The notes beneath the pieces are model-generated. The model had not been told where the DNA came from. It saw only the letters and a list, made by a program, of their open reading frames with translations, and ran no database searches. A stretch of 64,000 nt of DNA, from the IMG/VR virus record IMGVR_UViG_3300042290_000544. The stretch is one strand, 5' to 3'. Position 1 is the first letter of the stretch; each line of letters starts with the position of its first letter. The stretch comes from a virus. The translations under genes and the position numbers were made by a program. Below, piece by piece: positions 10,463-32,112 of the stretch.

Positions 10463-11155
10463 TTAAGCATTTACGGAAAATTCGGTAATCATCGGAAAGA
10501 TGGGAGCCAAAGCAAGAGCCATATTCTGAGCCACTTCCATGTGCTCCTTCTGAGTACCATTGCCCGAACGTACCTCAATGTAATGGATGAAGCTGCGGAG
10601 CGTTCCGGAGATGTAAAGACGGGAGACCGTGTTACCTTCTGGTAGAATAGAACGAGCTTGCTCTTTAGCAATACCACGTTCCAGTGCAGCTTTATAAGTT
10701 GCTGATGCTAAATCAATTACTTCTTGCTGTTTGATTTCCCACCACAATTTTGTGGCATCATCTGCGGTATCCAAGGAATTCTGGCGGTTCTTATCATCCT
10801 GGAGACGCGCCTCACGCGTTACGAAGTCCAACTCCTTCACGGGGTCGGCATAGCGTTGGCTAAACTCCTGGAAGGAGAATGAGCGATGGCGGAGAATCTG
10901 GCGGGCAATATCTCGGGTCGTATTGACTTCGACGCAGGCAGACACCATCTCCAAAGGAGACCAATGCTTGTTGCGAATAAGATACCGAATGAGTTTGTCG
11001 GAAGTCTCGGTATTGAACTGATTCTTTGGATTCGAGACTCTTGCACAAAATGCAATAAGATCCTGAAGATCCATACTGAAATTTTCAATTCCAATGGGTT
11101 TCATCCCATCTGCCATCTTGGAGTGGCTGATTAGTTTAACTTTTTTGGTTATCAT
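10463..11155 (-). CDS. thyX: Flavin-dependent thymidylate synthase ThyX
   Basis: HWSPLE and RHRSFSFQEFSQRY (RHRx7S) motifs. Confidence 0.95.
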   Translation of the reverse strand: MITKKVKLISHSKMADGMKPIGIENFSMDLQDLIAFCARVSNPKNQFNTETSDKLIRYLIRNKHWSPLEMVSACVEVNTTRDIARQILRHRSFSFQEFSQRYADPVKELDFVTREARLQDDKNRQNSLDTADDATKLWWEIKQQEVIDLASATYKAALERGIAKEQARSILPEGNTVSRLYISGTLRSFIHYIEVRSGNGTQKEHMEVAQNMALALAPIFPMITEFSVNA

Positions 11156-11579
11156 GATTGATTTTATGTGTGAGATAGTACCCAAGCATTTTTACGTTTT
11201 TCTGAGTAAATTCAAATTCATCACTGTAAATGCCACCATTCCGCTGAATAAACTCTTCAGAAAAACCCTCCTTGAGCATACGGTTAACCATACCTCTGTT
11301 GAGAATGTAGGCACAAGAAGTCTTTTTTCCAAAATTAGGAAATATCATTATAGTACCAAAATCAGAATCGATTTTGGCTTTGGCAGCAATAAGTGTTTGA
11401 CCTGAATTAATTGCAGTATCGAAATCAATGGATACCTTAATGTCCTTATTTTGCAGTTGCGCAGAATGGATAATGTCGTGAGCAAACTCCAAGACACATT
11501 CATTGGTATGAACGTCGGTCTTGTGCTCGGAATAGTCTGGTTTGTTTTTTTCCTGTTCGTTATCGTCGTCGGCAAGCAT
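11136..11579 (-). CDS. Hypothetical protein
   Basis: Operon-packed ORF; ATG adjacent to the upstream stop. Confidence 0.55.
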   Translation of the reverse strand: MLADDDNEQEKNKPDYSEHKTDVHTNECVLEFAHDIIHSAQLQNKDIKVSIDFDTAINSGQTLIAAKAKIDSDFGTIMIFPNFGKKTSCAYILNRGMVNRMLKEGFSEEFIQRNGGIYSDEFEFTQKNVKMLGYYLTHKINHDNQKS

Positions 11580-15708: not shown

Positions 15709-16015
15709 TAGACCCTACTTTATAGTTTCCCGTGTCGAAGGCATTTTGAATGATGTGACTTAGAATGTCACCAAGGTGATTGTTGAAATCGGCAGACATT
15801 TCCAGTTCATCAATATCATGAACGTCTGGAGCTTCGTCTACTTTGAATTGAAAAGAGAGAGTGGCCGATTCTTTGTCTTCGTTTACCTTTAAGGAAACCT
15901 TTCCGTAAGTAACAACGACGCCCGACCATGGGCCACTCTTTAACTTAACCGAATACAATTCGGAAGTTGGCTTTTCAACGAAAGCGTAATCTGTATCTGT
16001 AATTTTAGGATTCAT
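15662..16015 (-). CDS. Conserved protein at the T4 gp40 position
   Basis: Synteny uvsX-40-41; conserved GxxxxYGKV...FxxxLGDIL pattern. Confidence 0.5.
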   Translation of the reverse strand: MNPKITDTDYAFVEKPTSELYSVKLKSGPWSGVVVTYGKVSLKVNEDKESATLSFQFKVDEAPDVHDIDELEMSADFNNHLGDILSHIIQNAFDTGNYKVGSNDKQSTNNDSSEVSE

Positions 16016-17054
16016 CGGCTTCATCATCTACGATTGAGGTGAGACCACTTTGACCTTCGCCGCCTAGGGTATAGCGAGTACGGATGTAATCTTTAAATTC
16101 TTTCGAGTCAAGAATGTCTTTCCAGAATTCCTTCGTGTAGGTATCTTTCTCACGGTACTTGGCGGTGTCACCTTTCTTTTGGTACCAACCCTGGGTCGGT
16201 TTAGTGACAAAGCCGCCATCAAGAGAAACCTCAAGGAGACCAGAGTATTTCTCAACGCCGTTGGCAAAAGAAACAGAAATCGGAACCTTGGACTTTTCTT
16301 TTACAAAGCGAGACTTGTCAACGTTGATCACAAAGTGGTAACCTTGGAGACCGTCATCATCCTTGTCTTGTTGGCGGCCGAGAATCCAGACCGTGTTTGC
16401 CGAGTAATAGAGACCGGTACCACCAGAAAGAACATCCTTGGGATACATGTCCTGCGTCTTGTAGGTGTGACCGATGGCAACAATCGGAATGTCCTTCATT
16501 GAAAGATGCGGGGTTACCATACGGAACAGGCTCTTGAAAGCCTTGGCACGAGTCATATCGGCAACCGATTTCTCATTCATGGCATCCTCAACTTCCTTCT
16601 TGGAAGCAAGGTTACCGACCGAGTCAATCATGATGATGACCTTGTCGCTTTTCTCAATTCCATCAAGCTGTTTCATAATGTCGAATTTAAGGTCTTCGAC
16701 ATTCATGATGGGGCAGTGGAGCACGCGGCTGGTATCAATGCCAAAGGTCTTGAAGTAAGCCTGAGGCGAACCAAATTCAGAATCATAGAATAGTACGATT
16801 GAATCAGGATGCTTTCTCATATACGCCGCAACCATGATGAGGGCAAATGAGGTCTTGAAGTGTTTAGATGGACCGGCAAGGACGGTAAGACCGGAAGTGA
16901 GACCCTTGTCGAGGTCACCCGAAAGGGCAACATTGATCATAGGAACATCGGTCGGAACACTGTTGTCGCCTTGATTGAAAAACTTGGATTCATCCAAGGT
17001 AGACGAGCTATCAATGCGGGAATTCTTTTTTAGTTTAGCGAGTAATGATGACAT
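16005..17054 (-). CDS. uvsX: RecA-like recombinase UvsX
   Basis: LAGPSKHFKT, YDSEFG, IDSVGNLASKKE, ADMTRAK. Confidence 0.96.
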   Translation of the reverse strand: MSSLLAKLKKNSRIDSSSTLDESKFFNQGDNSVPTDVPMINVALSGDLDKGLTSGLTVLAGPSKHFKTSFALIMVAAYMRKHPDSIVLFYDSEFGSPQAYFKTFGIDTSRVLHCPIMNVEDLKFDIMKQLDGIEKSDKVIIMIDSVGNLASKKEVEDAMNEKSVADMTRAKAFKSLFRMVTPHLSMKDIPIVAIGHTYKTQDMYPKDVLSGGTGLYYSANTVWILGRQQDKDDDGLQGYHFVINVDKSRFVKEKSKVPISVSFANGVEKYSGLLEVSLDGGFVTKPTQGWYQKKGDTAKYREKDTYTKEFWKDILDSKEFKDYIRTRYTLGGEGQSGLTSIVDDEADES

Positions 17055-17093: not shown

Positions 17094-18092
17094 TTAATGA
17101 TTCCAGTGAGGATAAAATTCTCTGGATAAATGAACAGATTGTGGCTTTTCCATATAGGCAAAGTCCAGTTCCTCTTTGTGATTCATTAGCGTTGAAACCC
17201 ATTTAAATACACAAACGTTTCCTTTAACGTTTTCCTCCAGCTCCCTAACAAAGAGCTTTCGAATTTCGTTGCGCTCATTCCAGCTCCCGTAAAATGGAGC
17301 GTCTTTATAATACCCAGTCTTTGGTAGTTTACGAGATTCGTTTTCGATTGGAAGCGGTTCCCAGATTGTAACCTTTGCATTACCTTTCTCAGACAGATCT
17401 TGGCATTGCTTTACGTATTCCGCAACAAGAGCCTTCGTAGCTTTAATTGGATCCGGCTGGCGAAGTAAATGGTGGCGAATATCGATGTTGCCAAAATAAA
17501 CTTCAAATTCAGAATATGCCAACGTATTATCCGGAACAAATGATTCAAGACCCATATTAAGTGCACCGTGCAAGGTCTTGAAGGGAACCGAATTAACTTT
17601 CCATCCGGGCCGATACATAGAAATTGCGTGAGAATCGCCAAATGCGAGTTTAGTACTCAGGAATTGATTATTCGGATTGATAACTGTTGCAAATGTTTCA
17701 ATCTGTGCCAAGTTAGTCCAGTCGACACTCTTCCAATCCGGGTGTGATGCTGGTTCCTTATCAACCCGGGGTTTAATCATCTCAGAGTATTTCGGGAAAT
17801 CAATCACGAGAGAAAAAACTTTACCAGTGAATTTAGATAGACGGACAATCTGATCGATCGATCCATACTGCTTTACACCGCCAAACAAATTCACCGTACC
17901 GCCCCAATCATTACCATGGTAAACGGCAATACATTCAAAGTCATTGTAATCTTCGATCTTACCGCCATAATTGACAGTAACGTCGTGGCCAGAGTGCCTT
18001 AATTGATCAGCATAGATTGCAGCCTGCGCCGCGCGGTGAGACGAAATACGCTCCGAGATTGGAGCCATTGGAGTTGTAATTAAAACTTTCAT
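17094..18092 (-). CDS. DNA-modification cluster protein with SGNH-like C-terminal domain
   Basis: FGDSH, FGNIDIRHH and terminal EKPQSVH motifs resemble SGNH blocks I, III and V. Confidence 0.55.
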   Translation of the reverse strand: MKVLITTPMAPISERISSHRAAQAAIYADQLRHSGHDVTVNYGGKIEDYNDFECIAVYHGNDWGGTVNLFGGVKQYGSIDQIVRLSKFTGKVFSLVIDFPKYSEMIKPRVDKEPASHPDWKSVDWTNLAQIETFATVINPNNQFLSTKLAFGDSHAISMYRPGWKVNSVPFKTLHGALNMGLESFVPDNTLAYSEFEVYFGNIDIRHHLLRQPDPIKATKALVAEYVKQCQDLSEKGNAKVTIWEPLPIENESRKLPKTGYYKDAPFYGSWNERNEIRKLFVRELEENVKGNVCVFKWVSTLMNHKEELDFAYMEKPQSVHLSREFYPHWNH

Positions 18093-18979
18093 AATTCTGT
18101 CAATTGTTCATCTTTCTTCCATTTTCTATAAGAATCCGTTCTATCTATAATTGATGCATCTTTTAAAACCGGATCGGTTCCAACATTCCACATTAAAATC
18201 TTTTTGCCCGTATTTTTTGGAATATACTTCCAAACTTTGGCATCATACGTGACCACTGTTGGAAATGGCGGTACGTTTTCTGGCTTTTCAGGAGTTTGAA
18301 AATCTAGAGGTTCGCTAATCACGGTGGCACGACCCAGTTCACCTTCTTTAAGATTACGAGCTACGGCAATACATGTAAATTTAGCATTGGGCCAGGCAAT
18401 TTGAAGAGCTCGGGTCAATACGCCAGTAGAAATAGCAACATAGACTTCATCCGGTTCTGGCAATTTAGATGCAGCATGAATGATCCCGGCCGTTGCATAC
18501 TCATGCCTTAGTCCTAATGGAACAAAAAATGCATTATTGTCTTTTGCCCACTTTTCAGCAAGGCGATTTAAATTTGGCATTGCCGCAATACGTTCAAAGA
18601 TCGCAGTTGCTCCACGTTCAATGCAACATGCCTGATGCACTGAAATCTTTTTGGAAGACGGCATAAAAAGAGTAACCTTTTTATTAATTCGGTTTGCCGT
18701 ATCGCAAATCGACACTCCCGCGAGTCCAACTCGAGGCTGAGAATATACGATATGATCCGATTTGATTTTTGCAACAAGCAAATCTCCAGCTCTTGTTTTC
18801 GTTCCTACGATGAGGTCGTCTCGAACCACTTGAACACCCTCGTGTTCAATAATGACTGGATCCGGATTATACGGAGTCCACCCTTCGCAAAGGGAAAGGT
18901 AATAATCCTTGGCTTCTTTCCAGGACATTAATCCAACATCTTTATTTAAACCGTCTATGACATGAGTATCGTGCGACAT
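18089..18979 (-). CDS. PLP-dependent enzyme (fold type II, TrpB-like)
   Basis: VVRDDLIVGTKTR (PLP lysine), AISTGVL, YDAK, WNVG. Confidence 0.8.
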   Translation of the reverse strand: MSHDTHVIDGLNKDVGLMSWKEAKDYYLSLCEGWTPYNPDPVIIEHEGVQVVRDDLIVGTKTRAGDLLVAKIKSDHIVYSQPRVGLAGVSICDTANRINKKVTLFMPSSKKISVHQACCIERGATAIFERIAAMPNLNRLAEKWAKDNNAFFVPLGLRHEYATAGIIHAASKLPEPDEVYVAISTGVLTRALQIAWPNAKFTCIAVARNLKEGELGRATVISEPLDFQTPEKPENVPPFPTVVTYDAKVWKYIPKNTGKKILMWNVGTDPVLKDASIIDRTDSYRKWKKDEQLTEL

Positions 18980-18980
18980 A

Positions 18981-20141
18981 TTATTTTAAGGTTTTGCAGA
19001 GCTCTTTATATTTTTCTACAGTGACTCCGGCACGGCTAATGACATAATCATCTGATGGATGCACGTCAAGATCGTTAAATGACTTAATGAGACCCAGCTC
19101 GAGCATTGGTTTCTGGCGGCCGTACGGATGATCGTGAATCTGATGTGATGACCAAAGATTATCTCTGTCAAGATGGTTGTATGCCGCACCTGGGCGGACG
19201 TAATTTTCAACCCAACGAATAAAGTCACAGCACACATCTTCTGCGTTATATGGGAATGCTCCAGTATCAGATTGAATCTTCTCCATGACAAGATCGAGAA
19301 AAGCCTCAGTCTTCATTTTTTTCGTCGGCGTCGCGAGATAAGAAATGCACTCAATGGCATTGGTACCGTAATAGAATGGAGTATCTCGGTGAACATATTG
19401 GGGAAACCAGTCAGCAACGTCAGCAACAACTGCTGCATATTGGAAAGCGAACCTGCGCATTCCGTTTGCTTGATTCCAGCTCAACATGAATTCGCCAATT
19501 TCGCGAAGTGTCTTCTTGTTTCCTGCAACTAAGAAATCTGCAAGTTCAGTGGCCAAACGTGGAGCAAATTCGCAGAGGTAGTAATCGCCACCACGTTTAT
19601 AACCTGCTGGTGGTTTTGGAAATGCAGGAAACTGGTATCCAACTGAAGTGTAAAACGGAGACTTCTCGGTCTTTACGATTTCAGTCATCTCTGGAATTGA
19701 AGAAGCAGTATGAAGCTTGAACAATAACGTATTATGGTAACCGGATGGTTTCGTCGCATAATTGATGGCAGAACCTGTTACGCGGTGAAGAATGAATACG
19801 TACATCCATTCTGCAAGAGAGAACTTCTTTCCGTTCCAGCTTGTCGCCACAGTCTTACGTTGGGCAGTATGGTTTCCTGATGACATCTTCATCCAATAGG
19901 GATGATGTGCATTCCAACCATAAAAGCAATCATTCACGATCTGTGAGAATCCAGCAAATTTACGTTCAACCACATCGTAGAGCTCGACATTTTCAAGCAA
20001 AGCATCACCCATTTTCGACTCAGCATGGGTTAACATCCCATAAGGAGGCTTGGATGAAACGTTGCATTTTTCCTGTTGATCCTTTGCTAATTGATAATAG
20101 CGAAGGAATTCATCGTAATAGTGTGTAGTTGAGAGTCCCAT
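18981..20141 (-). CDS. Putative amino acid:DNA transferase (aGPT-PPlase / HhH-glycosylase-like fold)
   Basis: F-x-Y-x4-D helix, GTNAIECI and NAEDVCCDFIRW resemble aGPT-PPlase C-terminal motifs; located between the nucleotide enzymes and the PLP enzyme. Confidence 0.55.
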   Translation of the reverse strand: MGLSTTHYYDEFLRYYQLAKDQQEKCNVSSKPPYGMLTHAESKMGDALLENVELYDVVERKFAGFSQIVNDCFYGWNAHHPYWMKMSSGNHTAQRKTVATSWNGKKFSLAEWMYVFILHRVTGSAINYATKPSGYHNTLLFKLHTASSIPEMTEIVKTEKSPFYTSVGYQFPAFPKPPAGYKRGGDYYLCEFAPRLATELADFLVAGNKKTLREIGEFMLSWNQANGMRRFAFQYAAVVADVADWFPQYVHRDTPFYYGTNAIECISYLATPTKKMKTEAFLDLVMEKIQSDTGAFPYNAEDVCCDFIRWVENYVRPGAAYNHLDRDNLWSSHQIHDHPYGRQKPMLELGLIKSFNDLDVHPSDDYVISRAGVTVEKYKELCKTLK

Positions 20142-20144
20142 AAA

Positions 20145-20591
20145 TTATTCGAATTTGACAAATTCCCAGGTAATACCTGCTTCAGCGAACATCTGCTGAG
20201 TTAGATTCCACGAGTCTTGCCACGTTGCAGGTATTTCCTGGTATGGCATAACAATGTTTTTAATTCCAACTTGGATGATGCCTTTTGCACATTCAGAGCA
20301 AACTGGCAATCCATGTACAAACAAAATGGATCCATCGAGCGAGACGCCACTATAACTTGCGTTATAGATGGCATTCATTTCCGCATGGACCACATATTTG
20401 TACTTCGTCGGACGATCAGCATACCGATCCGGCGTATCTTGGATTCCGCGTGGGAAACCATTATACCCCTGAGCTAGTACCTGCCCCTTTGGCCCAATAA
20501 TCACACAGCCGATTTTAGTGGAAGGATCTTTCGACCATCCAGCAATCTCGCGTGCCAATTTAAGGTAACGACCTTTCCACTTATTATCCAT
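20145..20591 (-). CDS. cd: dCMP deaminase
   Basis: SKDPST, GYNGFPRG, HAEMNA and CSEC zinc motifs. Confidence 0.93.
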   Translation of the reverse strand: MDNKWKGRYLKLAREIAGWSKDPSTKIGCVIIGPKGQVLAQGYNGFPRGIQDTPDRYADRPTKYKYVVHAEMNAIYNASYSGVSLDGSILFVHGLPVCSECAKGIIQVGIKNIVMPYQEIPATWQDSWNLTQQMFAEAGITWEFVKFE

Positions 20592-21261
20592 TAATAAGTG
20601 CGAAGTGCCGTTCATAGACGTGGAGCGAGCCGACGTGCCAGATGAGGTCTCCCATTTCATAATTATTTTCTCCGAGTGTGTTTAGATCTTGCAGAAGTCG
20701 GGTTTGTACTACGTGTTGCCAGGCACGATCATTTTTATAACCGAAGACGACATCGTTGCTTCGCATTTGAACGATGGCGTGAAGTTTATTGGCTCGAATA
20801 AAATACTGCACAGCATTCGTGCACATGAAATCGGAACAACCATCTTCGCAATAATGCCGGTGCATCTCTGGCCGAGTGTAAATCATTATAGCTCTGCGAC
20901 TATTTGGATTTGCGATAAGCTCATTTCGCGCAGAATTAAATTGTTTATGATTGGTTTCTGAGTAGATGCACCAACCGTAGTTTGAGTTAATCCGGCCATC
21001 TTTTGTTGCGACTTGTTTCCAGATCTTAGGAGCACCGCCAGGAATATCATTGACGTTCAGAGACTGGGAATCATACCATTGAAGTTCAGCATTGATGTAC
21101 TCGTAATTAAGTTTGCCAAAGATGGATTCTTCATCTGCAAAAAATGATGCGCCACACAACTCGAGGGTTTTAACGCCGCTCTTGTCTGTCACATAGGCAC
21201 CGTTCGCTAGAGCATCTTTAAAATGCTGACGAATATCATTAACTCTGGGTAGTGTCATCAT
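20584..21261 (-). CDS. gp42: dCMP hydroxymethylase (T4 gp42-like)
   Basis: Thymidylate synthase fold: INSNYG, DFMCT, MRSNDVVFGYKND (Asp at the TS Asn177 position, indicating dCMP specificity), GSLHVYERH. Confidence 0.88.
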   Translation of the reverse strand: MMTLPRVNDIRQHFKDALANGAYVTDKSGVKTLELCGASFFADEESIFGKLNYEYINAELQWYDSQSLNVNDIPGGAPKIWKQVATKDGRINSNYGWCIYSETNHKQFNSARNELIANPNSRRAIMIYTRPEMHRHYCEDGCSDFMCTNAVQYFIRANKLHAIVQMRSNDVVFGYKNDRAWQHVVQTRLLQDLNTLGENNYEMGDLIWHVGSLHVYERHFALING

Positions 21262-21601
21262 TGCGAGTAGAAGAAATTTTGCGGTTAAGGAAGTCGCGGT
21301 CTTTGGATTGTCCGTCAATGCCGCCGCGGCAGAATGAAACAAAGAAAGACGAATAGTTGATTAGATCTTTTGCAGAATCTTGGAGAGACTCGAAGTTAGG
21401 AGCATAGCTAGGATCAAATTCCATTGCCTCAAGAACACTACGCATGCGCAGTACTTTTGTGTTCATGACGTCAAGGATTGACGCAGCCCCGCGGGGGTAA
21501 TAATCAGCCTGCCGAATAGTGCTATTCGCATTCTGGTAATCATTGGACTTTTTGAGTTGCAGATCTGCACACTCTTGGAGGACTTTGATGGATTCTTTCA
21601 T
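21239..21601 (-). CDS. Nucleotide-modification-associated all-alpha NTP-PPase-like protein (Nmad1/DUF1599-like)
   Basis: KKSNDY...K..R...ESLQDSAKDLINY pattern; heads the modification operon. Confidence 0.7.
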   Translation of the reverse strand: MKESIKVLQECADLQLKKSNDYQNANSTIRQADYYPRGAASILDVMNTKVLRMRSVLEAMEFDPSYAPNFESLQDSAKDLINYSSFFVSFCRGGIDGQSKDRDFLNRKISSTRNDDTTQS

Positions 21602-21613
21602 AATAAAGAGACA

Positions 21614-21642
21614 ATTATACGCTAGTTATAGTAGTTTGTAAA
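21614..21642 (-). promoter_or_regulatory. Sigma70-type promoter of the modification operon
   Basis: TTTACA-N17-TATAAT. Confidence 0.8.
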
Positions 21643-22086
21643 TCACAATTTTTTAGTTAATTTAGGACGTTCGCCATCCCAACCCGTGCCATTCCAGTTC
21701 CATATTCCATAGAATTCGTACTCGTCAGAATCTAAAGGATTTAGGAAAATGTAAATTCGCCTTGCCACCGGAATACCTCGGGCAATTTTATCTTCCATTC
21801 CTTCCAATACGCCCCTCCGATTTGCAGCGCAGGTTATAACTTTCACATCGATTGGCGTGATGCCATCAGGCTCATACAGATCTCTGTATTTTCGATCGTC
21901 ATCCACGTAACCTTGCGACATGAGCCAGAGCTCAGCGTAATGACCACGTAGGCATTGTTTCAAAATTTCATTAAACGTACGATTCTGATGCACTGCAGGA
22001 CTCGGATCCTCATGGATCCGTTTTGCTTCCTTGAAGGCGCGGGAATATAACGACTGTTGGTCGATATCGGATTTCTTAAAAGTCAT
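21643..22086 (-). CDS. Putative PD-(D/E)xK nuclease
   Basis: GHYAE...RDL...IDVK arrangement. Confidence 0.5.
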   Translation of the reverse strand: MTFKKSDIDQQSLYSRAFKEAKRIHEDPSPAVHQNRTFNEILKQCLRGHYAELWLMSQGYVDDDRKYRDLYEPDGITPIDVKVITCAANRRGVLEGMEDKIARGIPVARRIYIFLNPLDSDEYEFYGIWNWNGTGWDGERPKLTKKL

Positions 22087-22514
22087 AGTTTTTGATATTT
22101 GCGGGCTGAACTTAAAGCTTGCATTTCTGACAAAAGACTAGGTTCGTCAATTTCGTGGAGGAGTTTCATGTCCGCAATATTGTAACATACCGACACTCGC
22201 TTGAGTCCTTCGCGATCCTCGCCGCCCACGTATTCCATATCATATTTTGATTTATTGGTGCACTCGTAGACGCGAATATACTTCGAATCGTCATAATCGA
22301 TAAAAATGAGTTTAGCCGTGTCTGTGATGCATTCAACAGTTCCCTTTGAGTTTGGATTGACCGTCATGCAATTGCCAAAGGTTTTGCTCGTATGCCGATT
22401 CTGAATTCTCACATCGTAATCAGTCCGTAGTTGCCGAGTTGAAAGATTTGCCACTTTTCCAAAAAGATTTAAACCCAGAAGGTGAAGCTTTTTGCTTTTG
22501 ATTGTATGATTCAT
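22083..22514 (-). CDS. Hypothetical early protein
   Basis: 143-aa ORF whose ATG lies 6 nt from a -10 box. Confidence 0.6.
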   Translation of the reverse strand: MNHTIKSKKLHLLGLNLFGKVANLSTRQLRTDYDVRIQNRHTSKTFGNCMTVNPNSKGTVECITDTAKLIFIDYDDSKYIRVYECTNKSKYDMEYVGGEDREGLKRVSVCYNIADMKLLHEIDEPSLLSEMQALSSARKYQKL

Positions 22515-22602: not shown

Positions 22603-23553
22603 TCAAAGCATTACACTCTTGTAGGCAAACTCAATGGCACGTTCAGCTTCCGCGTTTAACGGCCGTTTCTGATAAAGCCTAGAGGTATCGCTATCAAGAC
22701 TACGGATCATTTCCGCAATCTGCGATGCAGTGATCGGGTATTTTCGCTTTACTGCATTGCACGCAATACTCGACATGATTTTGTAGATCATGCGGTATCT
22801 TCCAGAGCCATCAATCGATGAGATTGCCTTATACTCGTTGATCAACTTTTTATTCACGAAAGGACAATCTGTGTAGGATGACCAACTCACCGCAGTATTG
22901 TTCATCTCTCCTTTTCGATAATTTAGAATTTCTTTCTGAATATTAGGCGGAAGCTTATCAATGAAACTCCGAGATGGTTTTTCGCTGAACGGATGCAGCG
23001 CCATAATCTGATCTGGATCCATGACCTCGCCAGACCGAGCCATAATGAAATTATCAGCATGGGGGTACTGAGCGGGCACGTAATACATCCGGCTCAGATC
23101 CTTGGTCTGCTCATCCGCCATAGAATTAAAATGCTTATTCAGAGCATACCAAAAATGACGAATCTTATCCGGAGGTACTTCCTTGTTCAATTGGAAGACG
23201 ATTCGAAACTTCTTTTTGTCTGGGCGAGATGACGCAGTCGAATAACAAATATGGTTGTACTGAGAATATACCTTCACTGCATCTGCAAAAGAGCATTCAT
23301 ATTCATCTACGTCTAATGCAGCCCAGCCACCCCAGGACGTCACATTGGCATTAGATCTTGTTCCACCTTTGGCATAGACGGCAGGGGAAATGAGAGAAGA
23401 TGATTTCTTCGTCTCGCCCTTTTTAGCCTTATAGCCGGGCAATCTTGAAAGCGTAAAAAGCAACTTTTCGAAGTCGGCCCAAGATTTACAGACTACTAAC
23501 TTGTCCGTCTTATTGTCAAAGACGGAATTAAATACTGTAAGTGAATAGTTCAA
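22603..23553 (-). CDS. Primase-polymerase (AEP-like) protein
   Basis: ALDVD, YSTASS, KFRIVF and KDLSRMYYVP motifs. Confidence 0.7.
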   Translation of the reverse strand: MNYSLTVFNSVFDNKTDKLVVCKSWADFEKLLFTLSRLPGYKAKKGETKKSSSLISPAVYAKGGTRSNANVTSWGGWAALDVDEYECSFADAVKVYSQYNHICYSTASSRPDKKKFRIVFQLNKEVPPDKIRHFWYALNKHFNSMADEQTKDLSRMYYVPAQYPHADNFIMARSGEVMDPDQIMALHPFSEKPSRSFIDKLPPNIQKEILNYRKGEMNNTAVSWSSYTDCPFVNKKLINEYKAISSIDGSGRYRMIYKIMSSIACNAVKRKYPITASQIAEMIRSLDSDTSRLYQKRPLNAEAERAIEFAYKSVML

Positions 23554-23954
23554 TCTGTGAAAATGGGTCCAAGCAATCCTACGTTATCTGCATGAGATGG
23601 CGCAGTCCAACCTTGAGGCTTGATTAGATCTGGAAGACCTAATGGATTTGGCCGAGACTCTTTCACTCCTACTTGTTTAGTGATGTTGGCTTCATATACT
23701 GCAGCCCAGGCTTTTTCAGAATCAACGTCAAAGGCGTCAAGCGTACCGATTGCAACAACGCAAAGATCAATGAGCGCATCAACCACATCATCGGCGTTGT
23801 CTGCCTTTTTCATTTCATCGAGTTCTTCTTGCAAGAATTTAATGCGAAACTCTAGGAAAGCTTTAAGCTTTTCTTTGTCGAATTCACGTACAATTGGATT
23901 TACTCCAAATTTGCGATGCATATATTCAATGTCATGTACCCAATTAGTTTTCAT
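23550..23954 (-). CDS. MazG-like NTP pyrophosphohydrolase
   Basis: EELDE...VDALID...AN..K, DLIKPQGW. Confidence 0.85.
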   Translation of the reverse strand: MKTNWVHDIEYMHRKFGVNPIVREFDKEKLKAFLEFRIKFLQEELDEMKKADNADDVVDALIDLCVVAIGTLDAFDVDSEKAWAAVYEANITKQVGVKESRPNPLGLPDLIKPQGWTAPSHADNVGLLGPIFTD

Positions 23955-30909: not shown

Positions 30910-32079
30910 TCAGGCCGCGGGTTGAGCGACTTCTGGAGCCGGTACCACTGGAGTGGCTGCTGGAACTGGATTCACAGAAGCATCAATCTTGGAGTAAAGG
31001 TCGGCAAAGGCGATTTTGGTATCATCGTCGAACCGAGAGATACACATATTGATCGACTTGAGCCGGTCGCGGAAGATGGAGAAGGTGTGTGCAATATGGC
31101 ACAGGCGACGAGTGGAAATCACTTCGTCAACACCGCCATCCGCAAACGTTTTGCGAATGACTTCCGACCAGGTTACAAGACGGTCGGCAAACTCTTCGTC
31201 AACGGCATTGTACTTTTCCATGTGCTTCACAACGATTTTGCGTTCGGTGGCCAATGGTGGGTACGTCTGCTCGATGGTGCATACAAAGCGTTCCAGGAAG
31301 GCTTCGTCGATAACCGTAGCAGCCACAAACCGACCATCCTCGGAACCCTTGCCCTTGGTATTTGCGGTAGCAATTACATTGAACCCGGGAGCCGGACGAA
31401 TGACCTCGCCAGTCTTTTTGATCAGAATGGGCTTACCTTCAAGGACGCCTTGGAGACACATGATTTTGTTGCTGGAACGGTCGATTTCGTCGACGAGAAG
31501 GATTGCACCACGTTCCATGGCCTTCACCACGGGGCCCTTGGCAAACACAGTCTCGCCGTTAAGAAGGCGGAAGCCACCGATAAGATCGTCTTCGTCGGTT
31601 TCTGGTGAAATCTGAACACGAATGTACTCGCGGTCGGCAGCCGCGCAGGCTTGTTCGACCATCATGGTTTTGCCATTGCCCGACAGACCCGCAATAAAGA
31701 TGGGATAGAATGACCGCGATTTAACCACGGTGGAAATGTCGGAGAATTCACCCCAACGAATATAGGTGGGGTCGCTTTGCGGAACGTAGGCGTCGGTATT
31801 GACGATTGAATTTACAGAGGTCGCCAGTTTCATCGTGGCGGGAGCCGGAGTCATAGGAACCACTTGGGAAACGGTGGTCGACGTGGTAGGGCGAAGGAGA
31901 GTGGTATAGTCATACGTACCCTTGTGGACGCGGTAGGCATCTGCAAAGATGTCGCTGTAGTTCTTATAGACGAAACCATGGGTTGCAGCCACGGCGTCGA
32001 TGACTTTACGGCGGAACACCGTAACGTCGGGATGAAGCTCCTTAAGGGAAGCGAGGATAGTGAGGGATGCTGATTTCAT
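30910..32079 (-). CDS. MoxR/CobS-like AAA+ ATPase
   Basis: GLSGNGKT, LLVDEID, ATANTKG, EAFLERF, STRRL. Confidence 0.9.
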   Translation of the reverse strand: MKSASLTILASLKELHPDVTVFRRKVIDAVAATHGFVYKNYSDIFADAYRVHKGTYDYTTLLRPTTSTTVSQVVPMTPAPATMKLATSVNSIVNTDAYVPQSDPTYIRWGEFSDISTVVKSRSFYPIFIAGLSGNGKTMMVEQACAAADREYIRVQISPETDEDDLIGGFRLLNGETVFAKGPVVKAMERGAILLVDEIDRSSNKIMCLQGVLEGKPILIKKTGEVIRPAPGFNVIATANTKGKGSEDGRFVAATVIDEAFLERFVCTIEQTYPPLATERKIVVKHMEKYNAVDEEFADRLVTWSEVIRKTFADGGVDEVISTRRLCHIAHTFSIFRDRLKSINMCISRFDDDTKIAFADLYSKIDASVNPVPAATPVVPAPEVAQPAA

Positions 32080-32112
32080 AATATAGAAGGTCAATTAATT
32101 TGTTATAGTACT

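What the first reader, a model, noticed from the sequence alone, without database searches (positions are those of the whole stretch)
17094..21642. Candidate cytosine hypermodification pathway: dCMP hydroxymethylase plus amino-acid:DNA transferase-like, PLP and SGNH-like enzymes
Seen: one promoter (TTTACA-N17-TATAAT) heads six tightly packed genes: Nmad1-like, TS-fold enzyme, dCMP deaminase, 386-aa helical protein, fold-II PLP enzyme, SGNH-like protein. The TS-fold enzyme has RSNDVVFGYKND, with Asp at the specificity position as in T4 gp42. Known: AADT plus PLP decarboxylase modules hypermodify 5-hydroxymethyl-URACIL (for example 5-NeOmdU in ViI), whereas T4 glucosylates 5hmC. Inference: this phage may attach an amino-acid-derived group, possibly decarboxylated and acylated, to 5hm-CYTOSINE. 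The operon has no T4-type glucosyltransferase and no recognisable 5hm-DNA kinase, so the activation chemistry may also differ. The AADT call rests on motif resemblance only.
Basis: partly seen in the sequence, partly recalled or inferred. Interest (0 to 1): 0.85.

Follow-up and report, generated by a model that had tools for sequence, protein, structure and literature searches.

The report
Kinase-less hydroxymethylcytosine hypermodification cassette
An uncultured T4-like phage makes T4's hydroxymethylcytosine, but where T4 keeps its sugar-adding gene it carries three enzymes related to those that hang amino acids on thymine in other phages, so its DNA probably bears a decorated cytosine that nobody has yet identified chemically.

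Summary
In detail: one consensus promoter (21642-21614, minus strand) heads six packed genes. They are a small Nmad1/MazG-like ORF, a true T4-type dCMP hydroxymethylase, dCMP deaminase, a 386-aa helical protein, a fold-II PLP enzyme and an SGNH-fold protein.

The block lies between uvsX and gene 42, exactly where T4 has beta-glucosyltransferase.

- **386-aa protein:** no Pfam or PHROG match. Its confident model has the amino-acid:DNA transferase PUGT of phage PaMx11 as best solved match, and it keeps an invariant Glu-x3-Cys like that enzyme's catalytic motif.
- **PLP protein:** a homologue of M6 gp52, the proven decarboxylase of DNA-tethered amino acids.
- **SGNH protein:** intact Ser, Asn and His, and an N-domain faintly like that of T4 beta-glucosyltransferase. 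In other phages it is fused to a 386-aa-like domain.

The three-gene set recurs in nearly all 49 related viral contigs. Every genome checked has a single thymidylate-synthase-family gene, always the cytosine type. I found no 5-hmU-type DNA kinase.

The most likely reading is a post-replicative, kinase-free, amino-acid-type hypermodification of 5hmC. The product and the activation chemistry are unproven.

This scan has reported the same cassette before, in at least 17 other genomes. I found no publication describing it.

The parts
21614..21642 (-). sigma-70-type promoter TTTACA-N17-TATAAT heading the six-gene block
   Evidence: Exact match. The pattern occurs 3 times in the window against 0.03 expected, and this site matches 11 of 12 consensus positions. 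Its function was not tested.
21239..21601 (-). 120-aa Nmad1/MazG-associated small protein
   Evidence: phrog_18404 E 7e-12 (profile positions 170-252) and phrog_1485 E 3e-9. Pfam DUF1599 (Nmad1) only E 0.018. Conserved upstream of gp42 in relatives.
20584..21261 (-). T4-type dCMP hydroxymethylase (gp42 orthologue); probable start ATG 21261
   Evidence: E 5.7e-82 to T4 dCH 1b49 over residues 34-251. The catalytic Cys (FMCTN) and the specificity Asp (RSNDVVFGYKND) are kept. The MilA-type match is only E 8e-4.
20145..20660 (-). dCMP deaminase (start uncertain, 20591-20660)
   Evidence: PF00383 E 2.6e-18 and phrog_174 E 1.7e-42.
18981..20141 (-). 386-aa aGPT-Pplase/AADT-superfamily protein (P0003) with invariant Glu301-x3-Cys305
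   Evidence: AF2 pLDDT 94.4. Best solved match is 8z2m PUGT (Z 9.7, rmsd 4.0, 206 aligned), followed by HhH-GPD glycosylases. BFVD matches to AADT, Pplase1 and HMUDK_hel proteins. Conservation.
18089..18979 (-). 296-aa fold-type-II PLP enzyme (P0002), homologue of M6 gp52 decarboxylase
   Evidence: phrog_7093 E 5.3e-35. M6 gp52 falls in the same PHROG at E 2e-159. hhalign to M6 gp52 gives Prob 95.9%, E 5.6e-9. PALP matches 8 of 24 orthologues. K61 is invariant.
17094..18092 (-). 332-aa two-domain protein (P0004): beta-GT-N-like domain (about 1-140) plus SGNH domain (145-331)
   Evidence: AF2 pLDDT 91.9. SGNH matches at Z 14.8 and Foldseek E 1e-5. S154, N202 and H321 are invariant. hhalign to T4 b-gt gives Prob 62%. 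PF09198 gives sub-threshold hits in the orthologues' N-domain. Fused to a P0003-like domain in P0155 and P0179.
23550..23954 (-).
   Evidence: PF01503 E 4e-7 and phrog_671 E 1e-17. Conserved next to the DNA polymerase gene in relatives. Substrate is inferred.
10463..11185 (-). ThyX thymidylate synthase, the likely consumer of the deaminase's dUMP (context)
   Evidence: PF02511 E 3.8e-41.

Best explanation
The block is the DNA-modification module of an uncultured T4-like phage.

**Before replication (by homology)**
1. A MazG-like pyrophosphatase lowers dCTP.
2. The gp42 orthologue turns dCMP into 5-hydroxymethyl-dCMP, which is phosphorylated and built into DNA in place of C.
3. The dCMP deaminase feeds dUMP to ThyX, so T stays ordinary.

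**After replication (inferred)**
Three enzymes occupy T4's beta-glucosyltransferase slot and work on 5hmC in the polymer.
1. P0004 would bind the hmC site through a beta-GT-like N-domain. It would use its SGNH Ser-His acyl-enzyme domain to activate the 5-CH2OH group, most simply by esterifying it. This is the job done by the P-loop kinase in thymidine pathways.
2. P0003 is an aGPT-Pplase/AADT-fold protein. It would flip the base and attack C6 with Cys305, expel the leaving group, and let an amino acid or amine add to the exocyclic methylene.
3. P0002 is a homologue of M6 gp52. It would then decarboxylate or otherwise trim the tethered amino acid.

The end product would be an amino-acid-derived 5-substituted cytosine that protects the DNA from host nucleases.
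For: **Position:** the window's gene order is 41, uvsX, [P0004, P0002, P0003, dCD], 42 ... 43. T4's order is 41, 40, uvsX, segA, b-gt, 42, imm, 43.

**gp42:** E 5.7e-82 to T4 dCH, with Cys and Asp kept.

**P0003**
- The best of 48,161 solved chains is the AADT PUGT (Z 9.7).
- The next 14 matches are all HhH-GPD-type proteins.
- BFVD gives prob 0.97-1.0 to proteins named AADT, Pplase1 and HMUDK_hel.
- Glu301 and Cys305 are invariant and Asp302 is 90% or more conserved in 52 sequences. The spacing equals PUGT's Glu243-Thr244-x-x-Cys247 (PMC11472151). In 15599 Pplase2 the equivalent residues (E222, T223, C226) are essential (PMC13458397).
- The ends of the structural alignment (model 316 = chain 258) put Cys305 on Cys247.

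**P0002:** phrog_7093 and hhalign 95.9% to M6 gp52. The decarboxylase activity of M6 gp52 is shown in PMC8989533.

**P0004:** SGNH fold with the catalytic residues invariant.

**Rosetta-stone fusions:** P0004-like plus P0003-like domains in one protein.

**Conservation:** the trio is kept in nearly all loci with enough DNA.

**Cytosine link**
- Each of four relatives' records, one of them 99% complete, has exactly one TS-family gene, and it is gp42-type with Asp.
- P0004 homologues also occur in Aeromonas phages 44RR and phiAS4, which have gp42.
- Petrov et al. list 44RR, 31 and 25 as lacking glucosyltransferases (PMC2993671).
Against: - No chemistry was measured.
- P0003 matches no Pfam model at E up to 10.
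- Profile-profile comparison with nine clade-2 AADTs is negative at Prob 0.3%. The control, clade 1 against clade 2, fails too.
- Z 9.7 is modest for a helical protein.
- The residue-level equivalence of Cys305 with the catalytic Cys rests on alignment end points, not on a superposition.
- AADTs are known only on phosphorylated 5hmU. No kinase was found, and an SGNH-made leaving group has no precedent.
- The metal-binding Thr is Asp here.
- The beta-GT-N likeness is weak (Prob 62%; Pfam E about 1e-3, below the cut-off).
Confidence: 0.6

Rival explanations
1. The target is 5hmU, not 5hmC. The neighbouring deaminase converts 5hm-dCMP to 5hm-dUMP, 5hmU enters DNA, and the cassette is an ordinary thymidine-type hypermodification pathway with a divergent transferase.
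For: - The dCMP deaminase is conserved right next to gp42 and the transferase-like gene.
- Every characterised AADT and M6 gp52-type decarboxylase acts on 5hmU derivatives (PMC8989533, PMC13458397).
Against: - ThyX is present, as in T4, where cd feeds dTMP synthesis.
- No dUMP hydroxymethylase and no 5-HMUDK were found.
- The cassette sits in the beta-gt slot.
- P0004 relatives occur in gp42-positive Aeromonas phages, three of which (44RR, 31, 25) are listed as lacking glucosyltransferases (PMC2993671).
- The Thr that binds thymine O4 through the metal in PUGT is Asp in this family.
Confidence: 0.12
2. P0003 is not a transferase. It is a base-flipping or DNA-recognition partner, like the helical domain of 5-hmdU DNA kinases, for the SGNH enzyme. 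The modification would be a simple O-acyl (for example O-acetyl) 5hmC. The PLP enzyme would make the donor or act elsewhere.
For: - The nearest Pfam-bearing clusters carry HMUDK_hel (11-13% of members), and one of the 52 aligned family members hits it at E 0.01.
- A relaxed hhalign to clade 1 is colinear over 259 columns at E 0.013.
- The fusion of an SGNH domain with a helical domain mirrors SP10's kinase-helical fusion.
- M6's clade-1 protein gp55 was dispensable in reconstitution (PMC8989533).
Against: - Glu301 and Cys305 are invariant and Asp302, Asp306 and Arg309 are 90% or more conserved across 52 sequences of 20-93% identity. This argues for catalysis.
- The best solved match is the catalytic AADT.
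- The PLP partner is homologous to an enzyme that works on DNA-bound amino acids, and it is almost always present.
Confidence: 0.18
3. The three genes are not DNA-modifying. They would be auxiliary metabolic or cell-envelope genes (a cysteine-synthase-like PLP enzyme and an esterase) that merely lie in a replication-gene cluster.
For: - The profile of the PLP family hits cysteine synthases weakly in the PDB (E 0.017).
- SGNH enzymes are mostly esterases of sugars and lipids.
Against: - The homology is specifically to M6 gp52.
- P0003 has a DNA-glycosylase-type fold.
- The three genes show tight synteny and fusion.
- They share a promoter with gp42.
- They sit in the beta-gt slot.
Confidence: 0.05

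Closest known systems
Thymidine hypermodification pathways of phages M6, ViI, PaMx11, PhiW-14, SP10 and SH-Ab 15599 (dUMP hydroxymethylase, P-loop 5-HMUDK, AADT/aGPT-Pplase2, PLP decarboxylase and other tailoring enzymes)
   Same: - A pre-replicative hydroxymethyl pyrimidine made by a TS homologue.
- A glycosylase-fold protein with a Glu-x3-Cys motif.
- A PLP enzyme of the M6 gp52 family next to it.
- In some relatives, a paralogous pair of Pplase-like genes.
   Different: - The hydroxymethylase is cytosine-specific.
- There is no P-loop DNA kinase. A beta-GT-N-like/SGNH protein stands in its place and is fused to the helical domain in some phages.
- The transferase-like protein is outside the Pfam ADDT model and has Asp where AADTs have the metal-binding Thr.
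- The product is unknown.
T4 5hmC pathway (gp56, gp42, gp1, alpha- and beta-glucosyltransferase)
   Same: - gp42 orthologue with about 60% of aligned residues identical.
- A dCMP deaminase, and a MazG-like pyrophosphatase that is a possible gp56 analogue.
- The modification genes lie between uvsX and gene 42.
- The N-domain of P0004 faintly resembles the beta-GT N-domain.
   Different: - There is no complete glucosyltransferase.
- The UDP-glucose-binding half is replaced by an SGNH domain.
- AADT-like and PLP enzymes are added.
5hmC carbamoyltransferase (MetaGPA, PMC8670742) and TET/C5-MT clusters with P-loop kinase and aG/PT-PPlase (PMC8256090)
   Same: - Non-sugar decoration of phage 5hmC.
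- PMC8256090 already proposed that kinase plus Pplase genes might act on 5hmC.
   Different: - Here 5hmC is made before replication by gp42, not by TET.
- There is no kinase and no carbamoyltransferase.
- A later paper (PMC13229309) links the 5mYOX clade that co-occurs with P-loop kinases and AADTs to thymine oxidation. I did not check whether that clade includes the contigs of PMC8256090.
RB69/DLP3 arabinosyl-5-hydroxycytosine (PMC13326640)
   Same: A T4-like phage with a TS homologue that carries the Asp, no T4 glucosyltransferases, and an alternative cytosine decoration.
   Different: Those TS homologues are best matched by MilA-type structures in that paper's table, bind flavin and make 5-hydroxy-dCMP. 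The window's enzyme is a close T4 gp42 relative. Their downstream enzymes are GT-B arabinosyltransferases.

Membership tests
T4-type dCMP hydroxymethylase (gp42) | TS fold with full-length similarity to T4 dCH | tested here: met
   E 5.7e-82 to 1b49 over residues 34-251; PF00303 E 1.5e-17.
T4-type dCMP hydroxymethylase (gp42) | Catalytic Cys (T4 Cys148) and Asp at the E. coli ThyA Asn177 position (T4 Asp179) | tested here: met
   FMCTN and RSNDVVFGYKND align with T4's FMCTN and RSNDVVFGFRND. The same is seen in 9 relatives.
T4-type dCMP hydroxymethylase (gp42) | Makes 5hm-dCMP rather than 5-hydroxy-dCMP or 5-methyl-dCMP | not testable with these tools
   Inferred from closeness to T4 gp42. The MilA-type match is only E 8e-4. 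In the table of PMC13326640 the 5-hydroxy-dCMP synthases have MilA-type structures as best hits.
Amino acid:DNA transferase (aGPT-Pplase clade 2, Pfam PF18724 ADDT) | Match to the family's sequence model | tested here: not met
   No Pfam hit for P0003 at E up to 10, or for 52 relatives at E up to 1. hhalign against 9 AADTs gives Prob 0.3%. The clade 1 versus clade 2 control is also negative.
Amino acid:DNA transferase (aGPT-Pplase clade 2, Pfam PF18724 ADDT) | HhH-containing two-bundle helical fold of PUGT / YuA Pplase2 | tested here: met
   8z2m_A is the top hit of 48,161 chains: Z 9.7, rmsd 4.0, 206 residues, model 10-316. Foldseek prob 0.47 to 8z2n. BFVD hits to AADT-named proteins at E 9e-40 and 5e-4.
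Amino acid:DNA transferase (aGPT-Pplase clade 2, Pfam PF18724 ADDT) | Strictly conserved catalytic Cys with metal-binding Glu-Thr four and three residues before it | tested here: inconclusive
   Glu301 and Cys305 are invariant with the same spacing. The Thr position is Asp302. Equivalence is inferred from alignment end points (316 = 258) and was not seen residue by residue.
Amino acid:DNA transferase (aGPT-Pplase clade 2, Pfam PF18724 ADDT) | Works with a P-loop 5-HMUDK that phosphorylates the hydroxymethyl group | tested here: not met
   No M6 gp54-like protein in the window (phmmer --max, best E 3.6) or in the 140-kb relative G002 (that search had no positive control). The only Walker A proteins in the window are replication or packaging ATPases and one 301-aa ORF.
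5-hmdU DNA kinase helical domain / aGPT-Pplase clade 1 (PF18723) | Match to the family's sequence model or profile | tested here: inconclusive
   One of 52 relatives hits at E 0.01. The nearest ESM clusters carry it in 11-13% of members. Relaxed hhalign is colinear over 259 columns at E 0.013, Prob 3%, with Cys on Cys. Foldseek prob 0.97-0.99 to PhiW-14 and SP10 proteins.
M6 gp52 / ViI gp226-type PLP-dependent decarboxylase of DNA-bound amino acids (phrog_7093) | Sequence homology to the characterised enzymes | tested here: met
   phrog_7093 E 5.3e-35 covering 9-278 of 279 positions. M6 gp52 is in the same PHROG. hhalign gives Prob 95.9%, E 5.6e-9.
M6 gp52 / ViI gp226-type PLP-dependent decarboxylase of DNA-bound amino acids (phrog_7093) | Fold-type-II PLP enzyme with a Schiff-base lysine | tested here: inconclusive
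   PALP matches 8 of 24 orthologues. K61 is invariant in GTKxR. The offset of the hhalign alignment (85 = 60) would put K61 on M6 K36, but that stretch was not aligned.
M6 gp52 / ViI gp226-type PLP-dependent decarboxylase of DNA-bound amino acids (phrog_7093) | Decarboxylates an amino acid tethered to C5 of a pyrimidine in DNA | not testable with these tools
   Needs an enzyme assay.
SGNH/GDSL hydrolase-acyltransferase superfamily | SGNH fold | tested here: met
   Residues 145-331: Z 14.8 (2hsj), all 50 top VIA rows are SGNH proteins, and Foldseek gives E 9e-6, prob 1.0.
SGNH/GDSL hydrolase-acyltransferase superfamily | Block I Ser (GDS), block III Asn (GxND) and block V His | tested here: met
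   G152-D153-S154-H155, G201-N202-I203-D204 and H321 are invariant in 35 sequences. The Asp of DxxH is Gln318, so the enzyme would use a Ser-His dyad.
T4 beta-glucosyltransferase (PF09198 plus GT-B C-domain) | N-terminal DNA/acceptor-binding domain | tested here: inconclusive
   hhalign gives Prob 62%, E 7.6e-5, with P0004 30-96 on BGT 29-98. PF09198 hits only the N-domain of the P0004 orthologues, at E 1e-3 to 3e-3, below the cut-off. The T4 control scores 1e-99.
T4 beta-glucosyltransferase (PF09198 plus GT-B C-domain) | C-terminal UDP-glucose-binding Rossmann domain | tested here: not met
   The C-terminal half of P0004 has an SGNH fold instead.

The most novel reading that the evidence does not exclude
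A very widespread group of aquatic T4-like phages replaces every cytosine with an amino-acid-derived 5-substituted cytosine. The route needs no DNA kinase.
1. A chimera of the beta-glucosyltransferase DNA-binding domain and an SGNH acyl-enzyme domain esterifies 5hmC.
2. An AADT-fold enzyme with Asp in place of the thymine-O4-binding Thr then swaps the ester for an amino acid.
3. A PLP enzyme decarboxylates the amino acid.

A simpler form of the pathway may exist in Aeromonas phages 44RR, 31 and 25.
Probability: 0.3. Interest if true: 0.85.

Novelty: new variant of a known kind. Interest (0 to 1): 0.72.

Why it matters
Known phage decorations of 5hmC are sugars and one carbamoyl group. Amino-acid-type hypermodification is documented only for thymine, and always through a DNA kinase.

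A cytosine version with a different activation step would matter in three ways:
- It would add a new natural DNA base.
- It would add a new way of activating a nucleobase hydroxymethyl group in a polymer.
- It would extend the substrate range of the AADT fold.

The family is abundant. At 90% clustering there are 940, 1694 and 1210 metagenomic clusters for the three proteins. Such DNA may therefore be common in aquatic viromes. That would affect sequencing bias, restriction and CRISPR escape, and the design of enzymes for 5hmC mapping.

Cultured Aeromonas phages carry the SGNH partner, which gives a direct experimental entry point.

Tried and rejected
- **Nucleotide and protein searches in phage records.** Megablast of the block and tblastn of P0003 against 50,697 phage records found nothing.
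- **Sequence searches of the PDB.** phmmer or profile searches with P0003, P0002 and P0004 gave nothing, or only weak cysteine-synthase hits.
- **Pfam on the fused proteins.** Pfam on seven long proteins carrying a P0003-like domain gave nothing useful.
- **Profile-profile comparison with AADTs.** hhalign of the P0003 family against M6 gp51 alone, or against nine AADTs, was negative. The only local match (residues 209-226) is a chance alignment without the Cys. A control with two known clades also failed, so I treat this result as uninformative.
- **Aeromonas ORF233c C-terminal half.** BLASTP of P0003 against it was negative. Foldseek gave only prob 0.18, so I make no claim of homology.
- **The 316-aa ORF (22603-23553).** I considered it as a pathway member and rejected it. 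It is primase-like.
- **The 147- and 143-aa ORFs.** They have no matches.
- **RB69-type 5-hydroxy-dCMP synthase.** I considered this for the TS homologue and rejected it because of its closeness to T4 gp42.
- **Whole genome.** None is held for the window, so 'rest of genome' searches used a 97%-identical 140-kb relative that is only 84% complete.

Full report
**What is there**

The window comes from an uncultured T4-like phage. Its DNA polymerase is about 50% identical to those of cyanomyoviruses. UvsX, a gp41-type helicase, a clamp loader and a terminase are all present.

A near-consensus promoter, TTTACA-N17-TATAAT, lies on the minus strand at 21642-21614. The exact pattern occurs 3 times in the window against 0.03 expected. 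Six packed genes follow:
- a 120-aa ORF (21239-21601)
- a thymidylate-synthase-fold gene (20584-21342 as listed; probable start 21261)
- dCMP deaminase (20145-20660)
- a 386-aa protein, P0003 (18981-20141)
- a 296-aa protein, P0002 (18089-18979)
- a 332-aa protein, P0004 (17094-18092)

uvsX follows directly (16005-17054). T4's own record shows the order 41, 40, uvsX, segA, b-gt, 42, imm, 43. The four genes between uvsX and gene 42 therefore sit where T4 has beta-glucosyltransferase.

**The hydroxymethylase**

The TS-fold protein matches T4 dCMP hydroxymethylase (1b49) at E 5.7e-82 over its whole length. It keeps the catalytic Cys (FMCTN) and the Asp in RSNDVVFGYKND.

This needed checking. RB69 and DLP3 have TS homologues with the same Asp that make 5-hydroxy-dCMP with a flavin (PMC13326640). 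In that paper's table those enzymes have MilA-type structures as their best matches. Here MilA scores only E 8e-4.

The window also encodes ThyX (10463-11185, E 3.8e-41) and a MazG-like pyrophosphatase beside the polymerase gene (23550-23954). The T4 logic therefore fits: dCTP is removed, hm-dCMP is made, and the deaminase feeds dTMP synthesis.

**The 386-aa protein (P0003)**

It has no Pfam, PHROG or PDB sequence match. It does have 940 metagenomic cluster relatives, and HMMER finds distant ones down to about 25% identity.

Conservation and model:
- A 52-sequence alignment shows invariant G123, S124, G134, N137, F233, D241, G259, E301 and C305.
- D302, D306 and R309 are conserved at 90% or more.
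- The AlphaFold model is confident (pLDDT 94.4).

Structural matches:
- Against 48,161 solved chains, the best match is PaMx11 gp46/PUGT, the 5-phosphomethyl-dU glycinyltransferase (Z 9.7, rmsd 4.0, 206 residues).
- The next 14 rows are DUF2419, AGOG, OGG, AlkA and EndoIII proteins, all of the HhH-GPD type.
- Foldseek alone was weak.
- Among viral models, a 62%-identical orthologue is already named 'Amino acid:DNA transferase domain-containing'. More distant hits are to AADT, Pplase clade 1 and the helical domain of the 5-hmdU DNA kinases of PhiW-14 and SP10 (prob 0.97-1.0).

Active-site motif:
- PUGT's active site is Glu243-Thr244-x-x-Cys247. Glu and Thr hold the metal that also binds thymine O4 (PMC11472151).
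- The equivalent residues are essential in 15599 Pplase2 (PMC13458397). Mutation of the cysteine or the nearby glutamate also kills M6 gp51 and ViI gp247 (PMC8989533).
- P0003 has Glu301-Asp302-x-x-Cys305. The end points of the structural alignment (model 316, chain 258) put Cys305 on Cys247. This equivalence is an inference, not a superposition.

Sequence profiles do not confirm membership:
- hhalign against nine AADTs gives Prob 0.3%.
- The same test fails between the two recognised Pplase clades, so it lacks power.
- A relaxed alignment to clade 1 is colinear over 259 columns and puts Cys on Cys, but at E 0.013.

I conclude that P0003 belongs to the aGPT-Pplase superfamily at fold level and keeps the catalytic-type motif. 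It lies outside both Pfam families.

**The PLP enzyme (P0002)**

- It matches phrog_7093 at E 5.3e-35 over nearly the whole profile.
- M6 gp52 is the enzyme shown to decarboxylate DNA-bound amino acids (PMC8989533). It is a core member of that PHROG at E 2e-159.
- hhalign of the P0002 family to gp52 alone gives Prob 95.9%, E 5.6e-9.
- Eight of 24 orthologues reach Pfam PALP.
- The VRDD...GTK61xR motif is invariant.

**The SGNH protein (P0004)**

The model is confident (pLDDT 91.9). Residues 145-331 have an SGNH fold. All top 50 rows are SGNH esterases or O-acetyltransferases, at Z up to 14.8 and Foldseek E 1e-5. GDS154H, GN202ID and H321 are invariant.

Following a lead from earlier notes of this scan, I tested the N-domain against T4 beta-GT:
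- hhalign gives Prob 62%, E 7.6e-5, with NLFGG aligned on NFFGG.
- The Pfam model of the beta-GT N-domain gives its only hits in two relatives' genomes inside the P0004 orthologue. These hits are sub-threshold.

This likeness is suggestive, not proven.

**Links between the parts**

1. **Fusion.** P0155 (790 aa) and P0179 (719 aa) are natural fusions of a P0004-like N-half (E 5e-58 and 5e-42) with a P0003-like C-half.
2. **Synteny.** In 49 IMG/VR loci the order P0003, PLP, SGNH recurs wherever enough DNA is present. This holds even in lineages where gp42 lies 14 kb away.
3. **Cytosine-type hydroxymethylase.** Four relatives' records, one of them 99% complete, each hold one TS-family gene, and it is always gp42-type with Asp.
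4. **Aeromonas phages.** P0004 homologues occur in T4-like Aeromonas phages 44RR, 31 and phiAS4. 44RR and phiAS4 have gp42 with Asp. Petrov et al. list 44RR, 31 and 25 as lacking glucosyltransferases (PMC2993671).

I found no M6-type DNA kinase in the window or in a 97%-identical 140-kb relative.

**Mechanism**

Shown by homology: 5hm-dCMP synthesis, a glycosylase-fold protein with a Cys motif, an M6 gp52-type PLP enzyme, and an SGNH enzyme with its catalytic residues in place.

Inferred: the three enzymes act on 5hmC in DNA. P0004 takes the kinase's role by making an ester leaving group. P0003 substitutes that group with an amino acid through a C6-thiol adduct. P0002 decarboxylates the amino acid. 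Asp302 in place of Thr may reflect cytosine's N4 in place of thymine's O4.

The rivals are a 5hmU target reached through deamination, a purely O-acyl product with P0003 acting as a recognition subunit, and a role outside DNA. I weigh them in their own sections.

**Known or new**

Burke et al. proposed that a kinase plus a Pplase might act on TET-made 5hmC (PMC8256090). A later paper links the 5mYOX clade that co-occurs with kinases and AADTs to thymine oxidation (PMC13229309). I did not check whether the two papers concern the same contigs.

I found no paper that describes an AADT-like or PLP set with gp42, or an SGNH enzyme in DNA modification.

Earlier follow-ups of this scan reached the same reading on at least 17 other genomes.

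Noticed in passing
L009:11143-12090 versus window 18089-18979: Contigs that are 96-98% identical to the window in P0003 and 78% in P0004 carry a PLP gene only 38% identical to P0002. Other near-identical contigs keep the 96-99% allele. One gene has been swapped inside the cassette, which may mean a different final chemistry.
   Followed up: partly
L004:9155-10138 and L021:11149-12165: Some relatives have a second Pplase-like paralogue of 327-338 aa between the P0003-like and PLP genes. The two are 72% identical to each other. hhalign of the L004 protein to the P0003 family gives Prob 80%, E 1.5e-5, and an 'EDK.C' motif is kept. The window lacks this gene.
   Followed up: partly
L004:7607-8020 and L021:9570-10001: A 137-143-aa ORF with a borderline UDG-superfamily match (PF03167, E 4e-5 and 1.5e-3) sits directly upstream of the P0003-like gene in relatives. 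It is absent from the window.
   Followed up: no
L003 (Erythrobacter phage vB_EliS_R6L gp1): The tblastn match to P0002 (32% identity) lies under a gene annotated 'DNA modification methylase' in Erythrobacter and Microcystis phages. This may be a fusion of a methylase with the PLP domain.
   Followed up: no
L001:4408-8388 (Aeromonas phage 44RR2.8t): ORF233c is 795 aa, with a P0004-like N-half and an unexplained C-half. It lies next to a sodium:solute symporter gene.
   Followed up: no
window 20584-20660: The listed deaminase ORF overlaps the end of gp42 by 77 nt, and its Pfam match starts at residue 27. A later start (Met16 or Met24) is likely. The orthologue in L004 is 138 aa.
   Followed up: partly
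window 30910-32094: A 394-aa AAA_5 / CbbQ-type ATPase (PF07728, E 9e-22) lies among the replication genes.
   Followed up: no
window 22603-23553; 21643-22514: A 316-aa primase-like protein (phrog_9765, E 6e-61) and two ORFs of 147 and 143 aa with no matches lie between gp42 and the MazG-like gene. The 143-aa ORF is present in only some near-identical contigs.
   Followed up: partly
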